A stretch of 64,000 nt of DNA from Escherichia phage vB_EcoM_LNA4: sequence record MZ311864.1, one strand, 5' to 3'. Of the stretch, positions 44,359-47,790 are shown piece by piece. The notes under the pieces are model-generated. The model had not been told where the DNA came from and ran no database searches. It saw only the letters and a program-made list of their open reading frames with translations. The position numbers and the translations under genes were made by a program. Position 1 is the first letter of the stretch; each line of letters begins with the position of its first letter.

Positions 44359-44676
44359 ATGGGGTACATCGCGTCAGGTAAGCACATCTACGGTAACTTC
44401 GAACTGAAGTTGCTGTCGGTGACCTGCGCCTCGTCCAACGACAAGATTGTGTACCTCTACATGCGTCATCAGTATCACTACTTCAAGTCTCTCCGGAAAA
44501 CGTACCATGAGTCGCTTGACAGTATTGCTGATGCCACAGGATTATCGAGGGCAACTGTTGCCAGGTGTGTGAGCAACCTTGAAAAGATAAAGTGGTTGAC
44601 AAAGGACACAACACGCACCAATATGGGCCACAACAAAACGATTTACGAAATTCACAATTGGACAGAGGAGAAATAA
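44359..44676 (+). CDS. helix-turn-helix DNA-binding protein
   Basis: SIADATGLSRATVARCVSNLE HTH segment; GGAGGA RBS. Confidence 0.5.
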   Translation: MGYIASGKHIYGNFELKLLSVTCASSNDKIVYLYMRHQYHYFKSLRKTYHESLDSIADATGLSRATVARCVSNLEKIKWLTKDTTRTNMGHNKTIYEIHNWTEEK

Positions 44677-44677
44677 A

Positions 44678-45490
44678 ATGAGTATTGAATTACGTTTGAA
44701 CAAACTGGTTGTTCCTGTAGACCACTTCACCTTTAAGGGTGGTGAGGAACAGGTCAAAATTGACCTAAAACACGCACCAAAAGGCGGTATTGGTTTCGTA
44801 GATATCACTGCCAAAATCAAAAATTCAACTGATGTCATGGCACTGGCTATGTTGGTGGATGCGTGTTCCCGTTTGGAAGGATTGCATAACCACGCAGAGT
44901 TCACCCTGCACCTTCCATACATCCCGTATGCACGTCAAGACCGTGTAATGAACCCAGGTGAAGCGTTATCTATTAAGGTTTTCGCAAACATTGTCAACTC
45001 GCTTGGTTTCGACACGGTTATCGTTGATGACCCGCACAGCGATGTCTCTGCTGCACTGCTCAATAACGTCCGTATCCGTGGTCAGGATGTTCTTATTTCC
45101 GAGATGAAAGATCTTGGCAACTCCACATTGCATAGCAACTCTTTGGTTGTGGTAGCACCTGATGCGGGTGCTCGCAAGAAAGCCCATAAGGTTGCTGACC
45201 GATTCAGTCTTCCTCTTGTTGAGGCTGGTAAAGTACGTGATTTGCAGACCAACGAAATCACTGGTACTGCGGTGTTCGGAGATGTTGAAGGTAAAGTGTG
45301 TATGATTGTTGATGATATCTGCGACGGTGGTCGTACATTCATCGCCCTTGCACAGGCCCTGAAAGAAAACGGTGCGAAACGTGTTATCCTGTACGTTACT
45401 CACGGTATCTTTTCTTTCGGTAAACAGGTCATCCTCGATGGTGGGGTTGATGAAATCTATGCGTATCATGACTGGACGGAGAATTTTTAA
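44678..45490 (+). CDS. prs: ribose-phosphate pyrophosphokinase-family protein (Prs-like)
   Basis: YARQDR, DDPHSD and PRPP-binding loop VDDICDGGRT motifs; 270 aa. Confidence 0.75.
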   Translation: MSIELRLNKLVVPVDHFTFKGGEEQVKIDLKHAPKGGIGFVDITAKIKNSTDVMALAMLVDACSRLEGLHNHAEFTLHLPYIPYARQDRVMNPGEALSIKVFANIVNSLGFDTVIVDDPHSDVSAALLNNVRIRGQDVLISEMKDLGNSTLHSNSLVVVAPDAGARKKAHKVADRFSLPLVEAGKVRDLQTNEITGTAVFGDVEGKVCMIVDDICDGGRTFIALAQALKENGAKRVILYVTHGIFSFGKQVILDGGVDEIYAYHDWTENF

Positions 45491-46023
45491 TGACTGAATC
45501 AACAAGTTTTATTTTTGTTGTCGATACAGATTCCTATGCTGGTAATTTTGAGCGTGACATGTGCGCTCATATCACCGGGCAGATTGGTGAATGCGGTGTT
45601 GGTGCAGAGTACCGCCCCGATATTGAAGACCTAAAAGAAGACCATTACGATTTTGATCTCGAAAAAATCTGTGAGTGGTTAGAAAATAATGTTCTCCAGG
45701 TTCCAGATGAACACGCCTGCTATCGCCCATGTGCGATTTACCCAACACCGGGGCGTACAAACAACGGCGGTGGTGTGCATTCTGATGTGACCGCAAATAA
45801 TCCATTCAAGTGGCCTGCATACGAAAGTGTAGCTATCTACATCCGTGAAGAACCACCTGAAGATGTGGTACGTTTCATGGTCATCCGTGCTAACACTTTC
45901 TATATTCGTGCGACCAAGTGGTCACCAGCAAAAGAAATCAAGGTAAAAGGTTGCAGATTGGTTAAAGAAACGACAACTGTGAAAACAGAATCGAAATCTT
46001 TAGACTTTTCACTTGACATCTAA
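45490..46023 (+). CDS. hypothetical protein within NAD operon
   Basis: 177-aa ORF with ATGA overlap to Prs-like gene; Cys/His-containing, no recognisable motif. Confidence 0.5.
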   Translation: MTESTSFIFVVDTDSYAGNFERDMCAHITGQIGECGVGAEYRPDIEDLKEDHYDFDLEKICEWLENNVLQVPDEHACYRPCAIYPTPGRTNNGGGVHSDVTANNPFKWPAYESVAIYIREEPPEDVVRFMVIRANTFYIRATKWSPAKEIKVKGCRLVKETTTVKTESKSLDFSLDI

Positions 46024-46076
46024 ACCAAACGGGGTGTAGAATCACCCCATCAAAACACACAAAGGAGAAACAAAAC

Positions 46077-47762
46077 ATGCTTAATCAAGAAAGTCCTATC
46101 CTGTTTGCAGACTTTTACAAACCTTCACACATCTCCATGTATGATAAACGTTCTGAAATTGTTCAGGACAACATGACTCCGCGTAACGCGAAGCATTTCA
46201 TTCACTTTGCTGATAATGACAAGCGTGTCATGTTCGCAGGCATCCAAGGTTTTATTAAGTGGTTCCTGATCGATATGTTCAACAATAACTTCTTCAATCT
46301 TCCGAAAGAAGAGGCTGTTGCTGATTATCGTGAGGTTTGCGATTCAAGTATCGGCATCGGTATGGTTGAAACATGGGGCTTTGAGGCGCTTCATGATCTT
46401 GGCTATCTTCCTCTTGAAATTCGTGCTCTTCCAGAGGGAACACTGTCTCCTGTTCAGGTTCCAATGTTCACAATCCAGAACACGCACCCTGATTTTTACT
46501 GGTTACCGAACTTCTTGGAAAGCGTGATTTCAGCAGAAACCTGGAAAACTATCACAACTGCAACTACCTTCTGGCAGTATCGTAAACTGTCTGAAGCATG
46601 GGCTGCTGAAACCTGTGATAACAATCTGCACGTTCCATTCCAGAACCACTGCTTCGCATATCGCGGTGAATCTGGTACTCACGATGCAGCACAGAGCGAG
46701 TTTGGTCAACTGATCAACTCAATGGGTACAGACACTATTCCTGCGATTCTGTATGCTCGCCGTTATTACAACATGAAAGGTAAGTTTGTTGCCGGGTCTA
46801 TCCCAGCATCAGAACACAGTGTTGCTACAACCAACATCGGCTTCATCGTTGGTCGCCTGAAAACAGAACATCCTGATTTGTCTCTGGATGAACTGCGTTT
46901 CCTGGCTGAAGTTGAATTCCTGAAACGCTACATCACGGAAATTTTCCCGAAAGGTTTTGTTTCCTACGTAGCAGACAGCTATGACTTCTGGGCGATTATT
47001 ACTCGTGCAGCACTGATTCTGAAAGAAGAGATCATGGCGCGTGACGGTCGTGTTGTATTCCGTCCTGATTCAGGCATCCCAGAGCATATTATTGCTGGTT
47101 ATCGTTGTTATGGTGATTTCTTAAATGAAGATAATCTTCTTGAAGAACTGTCTTTAGATAAGGATTCGAAAGCGGAGGTTGTTATTTTAAAAGGGAAATA
47201 TTATTTCCTTGACCGTGATGAGAATAGCCATATCTGTGGCATTGGTAATGAGCTTACTCGCCACGAGGCTGTTGGTGCTGTTCAGTGCCTGTGGGATATC
47301 TTTGGTGGTGAAGTTAACTCCAAAGGCTATAAAGTTCTGGATACGCATGTAGGGTTAATCTATGGTGACTCGATTACCGTTGCCCGTGCAAAAGATATCT
47401 TTGAGCGTCTGAGAGATCGTGGTTTTGCATCCAGCAATATCGTATTTGGTGTTGGCTCTTTCACGACACAGTACACAACCCGTGATTCACTGGGTATGGC
47501 TGTGAAGGCAACTGGTGCGGTTATTGATGGTCAGCAGATCATGGTTGTCAAAGAACCGAAGACTGATCTCGGCAAGAAATCTGCAAAAGGTTTCCTGAAG
47601 GTTGTTCGTGATGATAATGGCGAACTGAGACTGGTTGACAATTGTCAGCTTGAAGATGTACAGTCTGACGATAACGAACTGCGTCGTGTGTTCTACAACG
47701 GCAAACTGATTGTCGATGAAGACCTGACAACGATTCGTGAACGAGCAGCCGCTCAACTGTAA
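46077..47762 (+). CDS. nadV: nicotinamide phosphoribosyltransferase-family protein (NAMPT-like)
   Basis: 561 aa; FAYRGESGTHDAAQ and IYGDSIT resemble NAMPT active-site regions. Confidence 0.75.
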   Translation: MLNQESPILFADFYKPSHISMYDKRSEIVQDNMTPRNAKHFIHFADNDKRVMFAGIQGFIKWFLIDMFNNNFFNLPKEEAVADYREVCDSSIGIGMVETWGFEALHDLGYLPLEIRALPEGTLSPVQVPMFTIQNTHPDFYWLPNFLESVISAETWKTITTATTFWQYRKLSEAWAAETCDNNLHVPFQNHCFAYRGESGTHDAAQSEFGQLINSMGTDTIPAILYARRYYNMKGKFVAGSIPASEHSVATTNIGFIVGRLKTEHPDLSLDELRFLAEVEFLKRYITEIFPKGFVSYVADSYDFWAIITRAALILKEEIMARDGRVVFRPDSGIPEHIIAGYRCYGDFLNEDNLLEELSLDKDSKAEVVILKGKYYFLDRDENSHICGIGNELTRHEAVGAVQCLWDIFGGEVNSKGYKVLDTHVGLIYGDSITVARAKDIFERLRDRGFASSNIVFGVGSFTTQYTTRDSLGMAVKATGAVIDGQQIMVVKEPKTDLGKKSAKGFLKVVRDDNGELRLVDNCQLEDVQSDDNELRRVFYNGKLIVDEDLTTIRERAAAQL

Positions 47763-47767
47763 TCAAT

Positions 47768-47790
47768 AAGCCCCTTCGGGGGCTTTTCTG
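47768..47790 (+). terminator. rho-independent terminator
   Basis: AAGCCCC-TTCG-GGGGCTT hairpin followed by TTTT. Confidence 0.65.

What the first reader, a model, noticed from the sequence alone, without database searches (positions are those of the whole stretch)
44359..47790. Four-gene NAD+ operon (HTH / Prs-like / unknown / NAMPT-like) as candidate NAD+ reconstitution counter-defence module
The first rightward operon encodes an HTH protein, a ribose-phosphate pyrophosphokinase-family enzyme (YARQDR, DDPHSD, VDDICDGGRT), an unassignable 177-aa protein and a 561-aa NAMPT-family enzyme. The genes have overlapping or adjacent stop/start codons and are closed by a strong terminator. Phage Prs-like plus NAMPT-like pairs are established NAD+-rebuilding modules that overcome NAD+-depleting host immunity. 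The embedded regulator and extra ORF suggest a regulated or extended variant.
Basis: partly seen in the sequence, partly recalled or inferred. Interest (0 to 1): 0.75.

Follow-up and report, generated by a model that had tools for sequence, protein, structure and literature searches.

The report
Phage NAD+-rebuilding operon with two extras
This is a phage operon for the already-described NARP1 pathway, which rebuilds NAD+ from ADP-ribose and nicotinamide to defeat NAD+-depleting bacterial immunity, here carrying two uncharacterised extra genes: a small DNA-binding protein and a member of a large unknown protein family.

Summary
The four ORFs, the quoted motifs and the terminator are all at the stated coordinates. 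The window is a Seunavirus-like Vequintavirinae phage (95% identical here to Enterobacter phage EC152, 92% to Cronobacter phage GAP31).

The Prs-like and NAMPT-like genes are Adps and Namat, the two NARP1 enzymes:
- They are 43% and 41% identical to the genetically validated Bas63 pair.
- They carry the published Adps donor-loop residues and C-terminal truncation, and the Namat adenine-clamp residues.
- The GAP31 and 4MG orthologues are already listed in Osterman et al.'s NARP1 tables, so the core is known.

What is not described are the two accessory genes, both under strong purifying selection:
- **A 105-aa winged-helix protein.** It is coupled to Adps and preceded by two conserved 18-nt direct repeats.
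- **A 177-aa protein inserted between Adps and Namat.** It has a confident predicted fold with no PDB match, no Pfam family, and is not Macro or RyR. Its family has about 1,770 clusters. About 8 of 47 lineages place it beside NAD+/ADP-ribose genes (NARP1, NARP1-AP, NADAR, NDT-like, Nudix); most do not.

Verdict: a known system in a new, uncharacterised extended arrangement. Interest is moderate.

The parts
44217..44286 (.). Conserved AT-rich intergenic DNA at the divergent junction. It contains a palindrome with two AGATCT sites (44221-44226, 44234-44239) and two 18-nt direct repeats, TGTTTTATTGTTTTTATA and TGTTTTATTTATTTTATA (44242-44259, 44269-44286).
   Evidence: The sequence is nearly invariant in window, GAP31, 4MG and Mydo, and partly conserved in the Erwinia phage. 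Its function (promoters or origin) is not determined.
44305..44345 (+). Two 18-nt direct repeats, TCAATTTGAGACTAGGCT and TCAATTTGAGACTAAGCT, with 23-nt start-to-start spacing, immediately upstream of the HTH ribosome-binding site. This is the putative binding site (operator or iteron) of the winged-helix protein.
   Evidence: The 14-nt core occurs nowhere else in the 64-kb window. The repeat pair and its spacing are conserved in GAP31, 4MG, Mydo and Erwinia phage pEp_SNUABM_01. Binding by the HTH protein is inferred, not shown.
44359..44676 (+). 105-aa stand-alone winged-helix DNA-binding protein, the first gene of the operon.
   Evidence: Pfam HTH_IclR at 25 bits is above its cutoff; wHTH-PRTase_assc is a weak hit. 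PHROG 8102 E 2e-36. AF2 model pLDDT 79 with a three-helix plus beta-wing topology. Foldseek neighbours are MarR/ArsR/TFE winged helices and Rep/DnaD N-terminal domains. All homologues are 105-114 aa. dN/dS 0.08. It precedes Adps in 37 phage records.
44678..45490 (+). Adps (ADP-ribose pyrophosphate synthetase), the Prs-like first enzyme of NARP1.
   Evidence: 43% identity and 163 bits to Bas63 Adps, against at most 91 bits to any solved Prs. K185, D212-D213-I214-C215-D216 and F221 match the residues of the structurally characterised Adps. At 270 aa it lacks the Prs C-terminal module. The GAP31 orthologue is listed as Adps by Osterman et al..
45490..46023 (+). 177-aa protein of unknown function ('Mid', PHROG 23621), inserted between Adps and Namat with its start overlapping the Adps stop codon.
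   Evidence: No hit in Pfam, NCBIfam, PADLOC or PDB sequences. AF2 pLDDT 95, pTM 0.87. Best Foldseek PDB match E 0.1. hhalign against the Adpp Macro domain gives probability 0.3%. The family has 1,772 clusters. dN/dS 0.06-0.08. Insertion boundaries are defined.
46013..46067 (+). Mid-Namat spacer: sigma-70-like TTGACA-N18-TAGAAT (46013-46042), conserved hairpin GGGGTG/CACCCC (46031-46048) and ribosome-binding site AAGGAG (46062-46067).
   Evidence: A hairpin is present at the same place in 7 NARP1 operons, including Bas63, with some compensatory stem changes. Its function is unknown.
46077..47762 (+). Namat (nicotinamide ADP-ribose transferase), the NAMPT-like second enzyme of NARP1.
   Evidence: Best PDB matches are SpbetaL1 Namat 9w5x/9w5w at 422 bits, against about 160-186 bits for bacterial and human NAMPT. 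41% identity over the full length to Bas63 Namat. F462/Y466 correspond to clamp-helix F392/Y396, K39-H40-F41 is a Lys-type clamp loop, and the catalytic Arg in FRPDSG is present.
47768..47790 (+). Intrinsic terminator closing the operon.
   Evidence: 7-bp GC-rich stem, UUCG loop and U-tract. dG -16.1 kcal/mol, z -3.3.

Best explanation
The operon is a NARP1 NAD+ reconstitution module of a Seunavirus-like myovirus.

**Core pathway (inferred by homology to characterised enzymes).** When a host NADase defence (SIR2, TIR, DSR and similar types) splits NAD+ into ADP-ribose and nicotinamide, Adps uses ATP to pyrophosphorylate ADP-ribose to ADPR-PP. Namat then joins ADPR-PP to nicotinamide and regenerates NAD+, so the phage can keep replicating.

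**Two accessory genes ride in the same transcription unit.**
1. A 105-aa winged-helix protein is translated just ahead of Adps. It most likely binds the two conserved 18-nt direct repeats upstream of its own gene and sets expression of the unit (inferred, about 0.5).
2. A 177-aa protein of a large uncharacterised phage family is translationally coupled to Adps. Most likely it binds or converts an ADP-ribose-type small molecule, or shields a NARP1 substrate. That would widen or support the pathway in the way Adpp and RyDEP do, but with a different activity (inferred from gene neighbourhoods only, about 0.4-0.45).

The stated confidence refers to the NARP1 assignment of the core pair.
For: **Core pair**
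- Adps is 43% identical to Bas63 Adps (163 bits), against at most 91 bits to any solved Prs. The PP-loop DDICDGGRTF is identical to Bas63's.
- K185, D212, D213, I214, C215, D216 and F221 coincide with the catalytic and donor-site residues of the solved Adps. R86, H120 and D162 lie within one position. The C-terminal alpha11-alpha12 module is missing.
- Namat scores 422 bits to SpbetaL1 Namat, against about 160-186 bits to NAMPTs. It keeps both clamp-helix aromatics and a Lys-type clamp loop. It is 41% identical to Bas63 Namat over the full length, including the large insertion.
- Deleting the Bas63 pair sensitises that phage to SIR2-HerA, and the SpbetaL1 enzymes make ADPR-PP and NAD+ in vitro (paper 10.1101/2024.02.11.579819).
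- The GAP31 orthologues are listed there as Adps and as an Adps-associated NAMPT homologue. GAP31 Adps differs from the window's at one residue.

**HTH**
- It is conserved ahead of Adps in three Vequintavirinae genera and in metagenomic relatives.
- Its end is within 1 nt of, or overlaps, the Adps start.
- The repeats are conserved and unique in the window.
- A distantly related wHTH gene with its own pair of tandem repeats heads the Adps-Mid-Namat block in L077.

**Mid**
- It is under purifying selection.
- The Adps-Mid-Namat order recurs in divergent lineages: L077 at 59% identity and Salmonella phage 21 at 36%.
- It is also found in a NARP1-AP operon (L041), in a NAMPT/NADAR/NDT-like/Macro/Prs island (L046), next to NDT-like/Nudix gp334 in phage G, and near an NDT-like gene in L018.
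Against: - No enzymology or genetics exists for this phage. The assignment rests on homology at 41-43% identity to the validated enzymes.
- The Namat clamp loop has His/Phe where Bas63 has Trp. The Adps PP-loop tail (GGRT) differs from the solved enzyme's (xAAS).
- The HTH is annotated as a 'replication initiation protein' in RefSeq. Its fold also resembles Rep/DnaD N-terminal domains, and it lies at a strand-switch and GC-skew minimum beside AT-rich DNA.
- About 39 of 47 Mid lineages have no NAD-related gene within about 7 kb.
- Close relatives work without Mid (Mydo, L079), and Bas63 has neither accessory gene. Mid is therefore dispensable for NARP1 itself.
Confidence: 0.85

Rival explanations
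1. The 177-aa gene is an unrelated passenger, for example a stand-alone anti-defence or host-takeover gene. It landed in, or survives in, a permissive slot between Adps and Namat and has no functional tie to NAD+ reconstitution.
For: - The slot is variable: empty in Mydo and L079, a 52-aa ORF in the Erwinia phage, and the 177-aa gene in the GAP31 clade.
- Most family members sit in heterogeneous neighbourhoods. A Pfam scan of 145 neighbours gave no recurrent family.
- There was no Adps or Namat nearby in most of the 64 viral loci, and no NAD-related gene within 10 kb in LR745208.
Against: - NAD/ADP-ribose genes lie within about 7 kb in about 8 of 47 lineages, with Adps+Namat-type pairs in 4-5 of them. 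That is far above my rough expectation of about 0.3% (inference from the 4.3% NARP1 prevalence and genome sizes of 100-400 kb).
- The same Adps-Mid-Namat order is kept at 36-59% protein identity.
- The start codon overlaps the Adps stop in both window and L077.
Confidence: 0.4
2. The 105-aa winged-helix protein is an origin-binding replication initiator. The upstream repeats, AT-rich tract and GATC palindrome form a replication origin, and the position of the HTH ahead of NARP1 is only synteny.
For: - PHROG 8102 and RefSeq name it 'replication initiation protein', and Pfam gives a weak Phage_rep_O hit.
- The Foldseek matches with the highest query-normalised TM-scores (0.61-0.64) are plasmid Rep N-terminal domains 4pql and 5kbj, although they are not the best by E-value.
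- The cumulative GC skew minimum and the strand switch fall at about 44 kb.
- Iteron-like direct repeats sit beside roughly 80% A+T DNA.
Against: - All homologues are 105-114 aa with no second domain for helicase loading.
- There are only two copies of each repeat.
- MarR/ArsR/TFE-type regulators match equally well.
- GC skew follows transcription direction in phages, so it is not independent evidence.
- An unrelated-looking wHTH with different repeats heads the same enzyme block in L077.
Confidence: 0.2
3. The pair is ordinary nucleotide salvage. A true PRPP synthetase feeds a true NAMPT to make NMN, which host enzymes convert to NAD+ (a boost of the NARP2 type, or a general one).
For: - Pfam, NCBIfam and PHROG name the proteins ribose-phosphate pyrophosphokinase and nicotinamide/nicotinate phosphoribosyltransferase.
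- Namat enzymes retain some PRPP-dependent NMN synthesis in vitro (PMC12774641).
Against: - Both proteins score roughly twice as high, or more, to validated Adps/Namat as to Prs/NAMPT.
- The Adps-specific donor loop and C-terminal truncation are present, as are the Namat-specific clamp aromatics.
- No NMNAT gene is in the operon.
- SpbetaL1 Adps did not show Prs activity.
Confidence: 0.05
4. The module mainly recycles ADP-ribose and nicotinamide released by the phage's own NAD+-consuming enzymes rather than countering host immunity. One such enzyme is the SIR2-family protein encoded 3.5 kb to the left.
For: - A 258-aa SIR2-family gene lies at 40027-40803.
- It is shared with EC152, 4MG, Mydo and L079.
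- A NADAR gene lies in the same arm of GAP31.
Against: - GAP31 keeps the full four-gene operon but has other genes at the SIR2 position.
- Phage SIR2 occurs in 976 records, many more than carry this operon.
- NARP1 deletion in Bas63 gives a defence-specific phenotype.
Confidence: 0.1

Closest known systems
NARP1 (Adps + Namat) of phages Bas63 and SpbetaL1 (Osterman et al., bioRxiv 10.1101/2024.02.11.579819; structures in PMC12774641 and PMC13586617)
   Same: - The same two enzymes in the same order, at 41-43% identity to the Bas63 proteins.
- The diagnostic Adps and Namat residues are conserved.
- A GC-rich hairpin precedes the Namat ribosome-binding site, as in Bas63.
- The GAP31 and 4MG orthologues are already in that paper's tables.
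   Different: - Bas63's operon is two adjacent genes with no HTH and no intervening gene.
- Here a winged-helix gene heads the unit and a 177-aa gene separates the enzymes.
- The host phage lineage is Vequintavirinae, whereas Bas63 is a Felixounavirus.
NARP1-AP (Adps - Macro phosphatase Adpp - Namat) of Vibrio phage Gary (bioRxiv 10.64898/2026.01.28.702374)
   Same: - A three-enzyme-gene layout with an extra gene placed between Adps and Namat.
- The extra gene there extends the substrate range of NARP1 (ADPR-1''-phosphate to ADPR).
   Different: - The middle protein here is not a Macro domain: no Pfam hit, hhalign probability 0.3%, and no Foldseek match.
- GAP31 and 4MG are absent from that paper's Macro list.
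- Mid coexists with Adpp-like Macro genes in L041 and L046, so it is not a substitute for Adpp.
RyDEP (RyR-domain glycosidase or sponge) next to NARP1 in mycobacteriophage DyoEdafos (PMC13232231)
   Same: An accessory protein encoded beside NARP1 that feeds it (2'/3'cADPR to ADPR) or sequesters NAD-derived signals. This is a precedent for the kind of role proposed for the 177-aa protein.
   Different: There is no RyR (PF02026) match, and the predicted fold is a different, ferredoxin-like alpha+beta fold.
NARP2 (NAMPT + NMNAT) and NARP3 (PnuC + NadR) (10.1101/2024.02.11.579819; PMC13464706)
   Same: Phage-encoded restoration of NAD+ against NAD+-depleting immunity. NARP2 uses a NAMPT-family enzyme.
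   Different: No NMNAT, NadR or PnuC gene is in the operon. The NAMPT-family enzyme here has Namat clamp residues and an Adps partner.

Membership tests
NARP1 | A Prs-fold enzyme of the Adps clade, closer to validated Adps than to PRPP synthetases | tested here: met
   163 bits and 43% identity to Bas63 Adps, against at most 90.7 bits to any solved Prs. PHROG 619 E 1e-95. The GAP31 orthologue is listed as Adps.
NARP1 | Adps catalytic and donor-site residues (Lys185; Asp212-Asp213-Ile214-Cys215-Asp216 PP loop; Phe221) as defined in PMC13586617 | tested here: met
   The window protein has K185, D212, D213, I214, C215, D216 and F221 at identical numbers. R86, H120 and D162 are within one position of Arg87, His121 and Asp161. 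Loop residues 217-220 are GGRT rather than xAAS.
NARP1 | Loss of the Prs C-terminal alpha11-alpha12 module, described as the family signature of Adps | tested here: met
   The protein is 270 aa. The alignment to the 316-aa E. coli Prs ends near residue 259 with only 20 residues left in the query.
NARP1 | A NAMPT-fold enzyme of the Namat clade with the catalytic core retained | tested here: met
   422 bits to SpbetaL1 Namat 9w5x, against 186 bits (Xcc NAMPT) and 160 bits (human). FRPDSG with the Arg equivalent to R306 is present. 41% identity to Bas63 Namat.
NARP1 | Namat selectivity clamp: two aromatic residues in the clamp helix (F392, Y396) and a stacking residue in the clamp loop | tested here: met
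   GSFTTQY gives F462 and Y466, aligned to F392 and Y396. The loop PRNAKHF is the Lys-type described for Bas63, with His/Phe following instead of Trp. Stacking geometry was not modelled.
NARP1 | Adps and Namat encoded close together in one transcription unit | tested here: met
   Same strand, 586 nt apart, one terminator after Namat. An internal promoter-like site exists before Namat.
NARP1 | ATP-dependent pyrophosphorylation of ADPR and NAD+ formation from ADPR-PP plus nicotinamide; protection from NAD+-depleting defences | not testable with these tools
   This needs enzyme assays and phage genetics. It has been shown only for the Bas63, SpbetaL1, DyoEdafos and Gary homologues in the literature.
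NARP1-AP | A Macro-domain ADPR-1''-phosphate phosphatase (Adpp) in the operon | tested here: not met
   None of the four proteins hits a Macro Pfam family. The Mid profile against Gary Adpp gives probability 0.3%. Foldseek finds no Macro structure. GAP31 and 4MG are not in the published Macro list.
RyDEP-assisted NARP1 | A RyR/R12-domain (PF02026) protein beside NARP1 | tested here: not met
   No PF02026 hit at E up to 0.1 for any operon protein, and none in the flanking ORFs that were scanned.
NARP2 | NAMPT partnered with an NMN adenylyltransferase | tested here: not met
   No NMNAT-type domain in the operon or its immediate flanks. The rest of the phage genome outside the window was not examined.
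Phage/plasmid replication initiators (for the HTH gene) | A winged-helix origin-binding domain, plus a second domain or partner for helicase recruitment, and multiple iterons at an origin | tested here: inconclusive
   The winged helix is confirmed and resembles both Rep N-terminal domains and MarR-type regulators. There is no second domain in any homologue. Only two copies of each repeat are present. Origin activity is not testable here.

The most novel reading that the evidence does not exclude
The 177-aa protein founds a new, widespread family of phage NAD+/ADP-ribose-centred counter-defence factors (about 1,770 sequence clusters, novel fold). It could be an enzyme or a sponge. Possible roles are converting a further NAD-derived product into ADP-ribose, sequestering such a product, or protecting ADP-ribose or nicotinamide from host turnover. 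Any of these would extend NARP1 beyond what Adpp and RyDEP cover. The winged-helix protein with its tandem operator would make this the first NARP1 module with its own dedicated regulator.
Probability: 0.3. Interest if true: 0.7.

Novelty: new variant of a known kind. Interest (0 to 1): 0.42.

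Why it matters
NARP1 is a recently discovered way for phages to undo NAD+ depletion, and NAD+ depletion is one of the commonest bacterial immune strategies.

Two accessory proteins (Adpp, RyDEP) have already shown that genes lodged in or beside NARP1 operons reveal new host NAD+-cleaving chemistries and new phage answers to them. The 177-aa protein is a third, unrelated accessory candidate. It belongs to a large family with a confident but unmatched fold. It recurs next to NARP1, NARP1-AP, NADAR, NDT-like and Nudix genes.

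If the protein acts on an NAD-derived molecule, it would point to a further layer of this arms race and give function to more than a thousand unannotated phage proteins. If it does not, the locus is simply another catalogued NARP1 operon.

For phage therapy against Enterobacter, Cronobacter and Klebsiella, knowing which defences this module overrides has practical value.

Tried and rejected
- **Macro phosphatase (NARP1-AP).** I considered that the middle gene could be one. Rejected by Pfam, hhalign and Foldseek and by its coexistence with Adpp-like genes.
- **RyR/RyDEP.** Considered and rejected.
- **HAD-like DxD phosphatase motif.** The DTD motif suggested it, but the second Asp is variable and the predicted topology is not Rossmannoid.
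- **Metal or Fe-S site.** The Cys residues suggested it, but they are not invariant.
- **PDB profile search for Mid.** It gave only spurious alphaRep hits.
- **Domain fusions of the family.** P0020 (DUF6575), P0084, an 822-aa protein and a 367-aa protein were all uninformative.
- **Batch Pfam scan of 145 neighbours.** It found no recurrent partner.
- **PADLOC and NCBIfam.** These added nothing for Mid.
- **Rfam.** It found no riboswitch or other known RNA in the operon.
- **Literature.** No paper links NARP1 to a transcriptional regulator.
- **Error corrected.** I first assumed Bas63 was a Vequintavirinae phage. The record shows it is a Felixounavirus.
- **Weak wHTH-PRTase_assc and PRTase_III-A hits of the HTH.** These are sub-threshold, generic winged-helix similarity and were not used.

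Full report
**Observation**

The window holds four consecutive + strand ORFs exactly as described:

| Coordinates | Length |
|---|---|
| 44359-44676 | 105 aa |
| 44678-45490 | 270 aa |
| 45490-46023 | 177 aa |
| 46077-47762 | 561 aa |

- They are the first rightward genes after a strand switch. Everything left of about 44150 is on the - strand, and the GC skew changes sign there.
- The first two junctions are tight: a 1-nt spacer, then a 1-nt TAATG overlap.
- The third junction is a 53-nt spacer, so 'overlapping or adjacent' is not quite right for it.
- The operon ends in a textbook terminator at 47768-47790. It has a 7-bp GC-rich stem, a UUCG loop and a U-tract, with dG -16.1 kcal/mol and z -3.3.

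**What phage this is**

The operon DNA is 94.7% identical to Enterobacter phage EC152, 92.4% to Cronobacter phage GAP31 and 86% to Escherichia phage 4MG. All are approximately 148-kb Vequintavirinae; GAP31 is genus Seunavirus.

**The two enzymes are Adps and Namat**

NARP1 was described by Osterman et al.. A Prs-like enzyme, Adps, pyrophosphorylates ADP-ribose. A NAMPT-like enzyme, Namat, joins ADPR-PP to nicotinamide and gives NAD+. Deleting the pair from phage Bas63 sensitises it to SIR2-HerA.

Evidence for the 270-aa protein as Adps:
- It is 43% identical to Bas63 Adps (163 bits). No solved PRPP synthetase exceeds 91 bits.
- Its PP-loop DDICDGGRTF is identical to Bas63's.
- Against the structure paper on Adps (PMC13586617), it has K185, D212, D213, I214, C215, D216 and F221 at the same numbers. 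R86, H120 and D162 are within one position.
- At 270 aa it lacks the C-terminal alpha11-alpha12 module, whose loss that paper calls a family signature.

Evidence for the 561-aa protein as Namat:
- Its best PDB matches are the SpbetaL1 Namat entries 9w5x and 9w5w (422 bits). Bacterial and human NAMPTs score about 160-186 bits.
- It is 41% identical to Bas63 Namat along the whole length. That includes a large insertion (residues about 344-397) that SpbetaL1 Namat lacks.
- The two aromatic residues of the Namat 'selectivity clamp helix' (F392, Y396) are F462 and Y466 here. In the paper's mutants mimicking human NAMPT these are replaced by G and K.
- The clamp loop is the Lys-type seen in Bas63, and the catalytic Arg is kept.

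The supplementary tables of Osterman et al. list the GAP31 and 4MG orthologues. They appear as Adps (JN882284_00173, KF550303_00114) and as 'Adps-associated' NAMPT homologues (JN882284_00175, KF550303_00112). The skipped gene number in each pair is the 177-aa ORF. The core system is therefore already known, including in this clade.

**The winged-helix gene**

- The 105-aa protein is a stand-alone winged helix. Pfam HTH_IclR scores above its cutoff, and the AF2 model shows three helices plus a beta-wing.
- All nine homologous clusters are 105-114 aa, and dN/dS is 0.08.
- It heads the Adps gene in 37 phage records across Seunavirus, Mydovirus and Henunavirus. It also does so in the metagenomic relative L079. 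Its end abuts or overlaps the Adps start.
- The intergenic DNA upstream is strikingly conserved across those genera.
- That DNA includes two 18-nt direct repeats (TCAATTTGAGACTAGGCT, 23-nt spacing, 44305-44345) just before the ribosome-binding site. Their core occurs nowhere else in the window.
- A contig with a more divergent Adps-Mid-Namat block (L077) starts with a very distant wHTH (26% identity). That gene is preceded by its own, different pair of tandem repeats.

This pattern fits an autoregulatory DNA-binding protein controlling the unit.

The rival reading is an origin-binding initiator, as RefSeq names it. I could not exclude it:
- The fold resembles Rep/DnaD N-terminal domains as much as MarR-type regulators.
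- The site lies at the GC-skew minimum, next to AT-rich DNA with a GATC palindrome.

Against it, there is no second domain and there are only two repeats.

**The 177-aa gene**

It is a real gene: dN/dS is 0.06-0.08 at dS up to 1.2. It has no match in the following:
- Pfam, NCBIfam, PADLOC or PDB sequences.
- Solved structures, despite a very confident predicted structure (pLDDT 95, pTM 0.87). Foldseek's best E is 0.1, with weak ferredoxin-like resemblances only.
- Macro domains (hhalign probability 0.3% against the NARP1-AP phosphatase) or RyR domains.

Family size and conservation:
- An exhaustive profile search finds 1,772 clusters at 50% identity, almost all single-domain proteins of 150-240 aa.
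- Conservation centres on the loop after strand 1 (DTDxYAGNFER), then TGQxGEC, PDEHxCxRP and an Arg in the last helix.
- Several invariant Arg, Asp, Tyr and Asn residues are compatible with a nucleotide-type ligand site. This is inference only.

Position in the operon:
- Alignment with Mydo and the Erwinia phage shows the gene occupies exactly the space between the Adps stop codon and a conserved hairpin before Namat.
- That slot is empty in Mydo and L079, and holds a 52-aa ORF in the Erwinia phage.

**Where else the family occurs**

Among cultured phages it is limited to the GAP31/EC152/4MG/EspYZU group, Bacillus phage G, one uncultured jumbo phage and Salmonella phage 21.

Across roughly 47 distinct lineages I examined, most neighbourhoods are heterogeneous and lack NAD-related genes. 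Many of these lineages are jumbo-phage contigs. About eight lineages do show such neighbours:

| Lineage | Context |
|---|---|
| GAP31 clade | Adps-Mid-Namat |
| L077/L078 (59% identity) | Adps-Mid-Namat |
| Salmonella phage 21 (36% identity) | Adps-Mid-Namat |
| L041 | Mid three genes upstream of a NARP1-AP operon (Adps, Adpp-like Macro, Namat) |
| L046 | Island of NAMPT, Mid, NADAR, NDT-like, Adpp-like Macro and Prs |
| Phage G | gp332 lies two genes from gp334, an NDT-like/Nudix protein that Iyer et al. call a novel ADP-ribosyl-cyclase-superfamily member |
| L018 | NDT-like gene 5 kb away |
| L074 | Divergent 597-aa Nudix protein |

- NARP1 occurs in about 4% of phages. It fills only a few kb of genomes this size.
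- My rough estimate is therefore that Adps+Namat-type pairs near Mid in 4-5 of 47 lineages is tens of times more than chance. I could not run a proper permutation control.
- Because Mid coexists with Adpp, it is not an Adpp substitute.

**Mechanism and confidence**

- I am confident (about 0.85-0.9) that the operon is a NARP1 module working as published.
- I put about 0.5 on the winged-helix protein being its regulator acting through the tandem repeats, and about 0.2 on it being an origin-binding protein.
- I put about 0.4-0.45 on the 177-aa protein being functionally tied to NAD+/ADP-ribose handling, and about 0.4 on it being an unrelated passenger.
- None of the accessory roles is shown.

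**Comparison and novelty**

The locus is a member of NARP1 on every sequence-level criterion I could test. It fails the defining tests for NARP1-AP (no Macro), RyDEP-assisted NARP1 (no RyR domain) and NARP2 (no NMNAT).

The four-gene arrangement with a dedicated winged-helix gene and this middle gene is not described in any paper I found. I therefore rate it a new variant of a known kind. Interest is moderate. The main system is published and already catalogued in the closest relatives. The middle gene is a concrete, testable lead into a large family of unknown function.

Noticed in passing
window 40027-40803 (- strand): A 258-aa SIR2-family (NAD+-consuming) protein lies 3.5 kb left of the NARP1 operon, between an ATP-dependent DNA ligase and an Rnl1-type RNA ligase. 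GAP31 has different small genes at this position, whereas EC152, 4MG, Mydo and L079 have the SIR2 gene. Phage SIR2 homologues occur in 976 phage records.
   Followed up: partly
window 41025-41909 and 42475-43071 (- strand): A T4 Rnl1-like RNA ligase and a calcineurin-like metallophosphoesterase sit on the leftward arm of the same divergent junction. This synteny is kept in GAP31, Mydo, the Erwinia phage and L079, which also has an AAA_33 kinase. It may be an RNA-repair or counter-defence cluster facing the NARP1 operon.
   Followed up: no
window 46031-46048: A GC-rich hairpin (GGGGTG-TAGAAT-CACCCC) lies just before the Namat ribosome-binding site. It is present at the same place in GAP31, 4MG, Mydo (GGGCG/CGCCC), the Erwinia phage (GGGGAG/CTCCCC), L077 and even Bas63 (GGGGC/GCCCC). 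Its loop doubles as the -10 of a sigma-70-like promoter (46013-46042). No U-tract follows, so it is not a terminator. Its function is unknown.
   Followed up: partly
window 44217-44286: Conserved palindrome AAAAGATCTTGTTTTTAGATCTT with two GATC sites, followed by two AT-rich 18-nt direct repeats. The site is at the strand switch and the cumulative GC-skew minimum. It could be divergent promoters or a replication origin.
   Followed up: partly
window 47106-47267 (Namat residues about 344-397): The window Namat and Bas63 Namat share a roughly 55-85-residue insertion, plus a smaller one near residues 255-275. Both are absent from the crystallised SpbetaL1 Namat. Their role is unknown.
   Followed up: no
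window 49029-55147 (+ strand): A cluster of 22 tRNA genes lies downstream of the operon.
   Followed up: no
L046 4758-13391: A 233-kb viral contig carries a dense NAD/ADP-ribose island: NAMPT (541 aa), a 201-aa unknown, Mid homologue, NADAR, nucleoside-2-deoxyribosyltransferase-like protein, Adpp-like Macro (41% identity to Vibrio phage Gary Adpp) and, 4 kb on, a full-length Prs.
   Followed up: partly
L041 2301-8547: A viral contig carries a NARP1-AP-type operon (Adps 4503-5378, a 164-aa unknown, Adpp-like Macro 6061-6699, Namat 7024-8547). A Mid homologue lies three genes upstream, so Mid and Adpp coexist.
   Followed up: partly
L077 31-74: Two tandem direct repeats (ACTTTTTTGGGTATAATTAG) lie upstream of a very divergent wHTH gene that heads another Adps-Mid-Namat block. 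This parallels the repeat pair in the window but with a different sequence.
   Followed up: no
L080 3275-3781 (GAP31 69274-69780): GAP31 encodes a NADAR-family protein and a MazG-like nucleotide pyrophosphohydrolase in the leftward arm, about 10 kb from the operon. Only the MazG-like ORF was checked in the window (37207-37896, weak PRA-PH hit).
   Followed up: no
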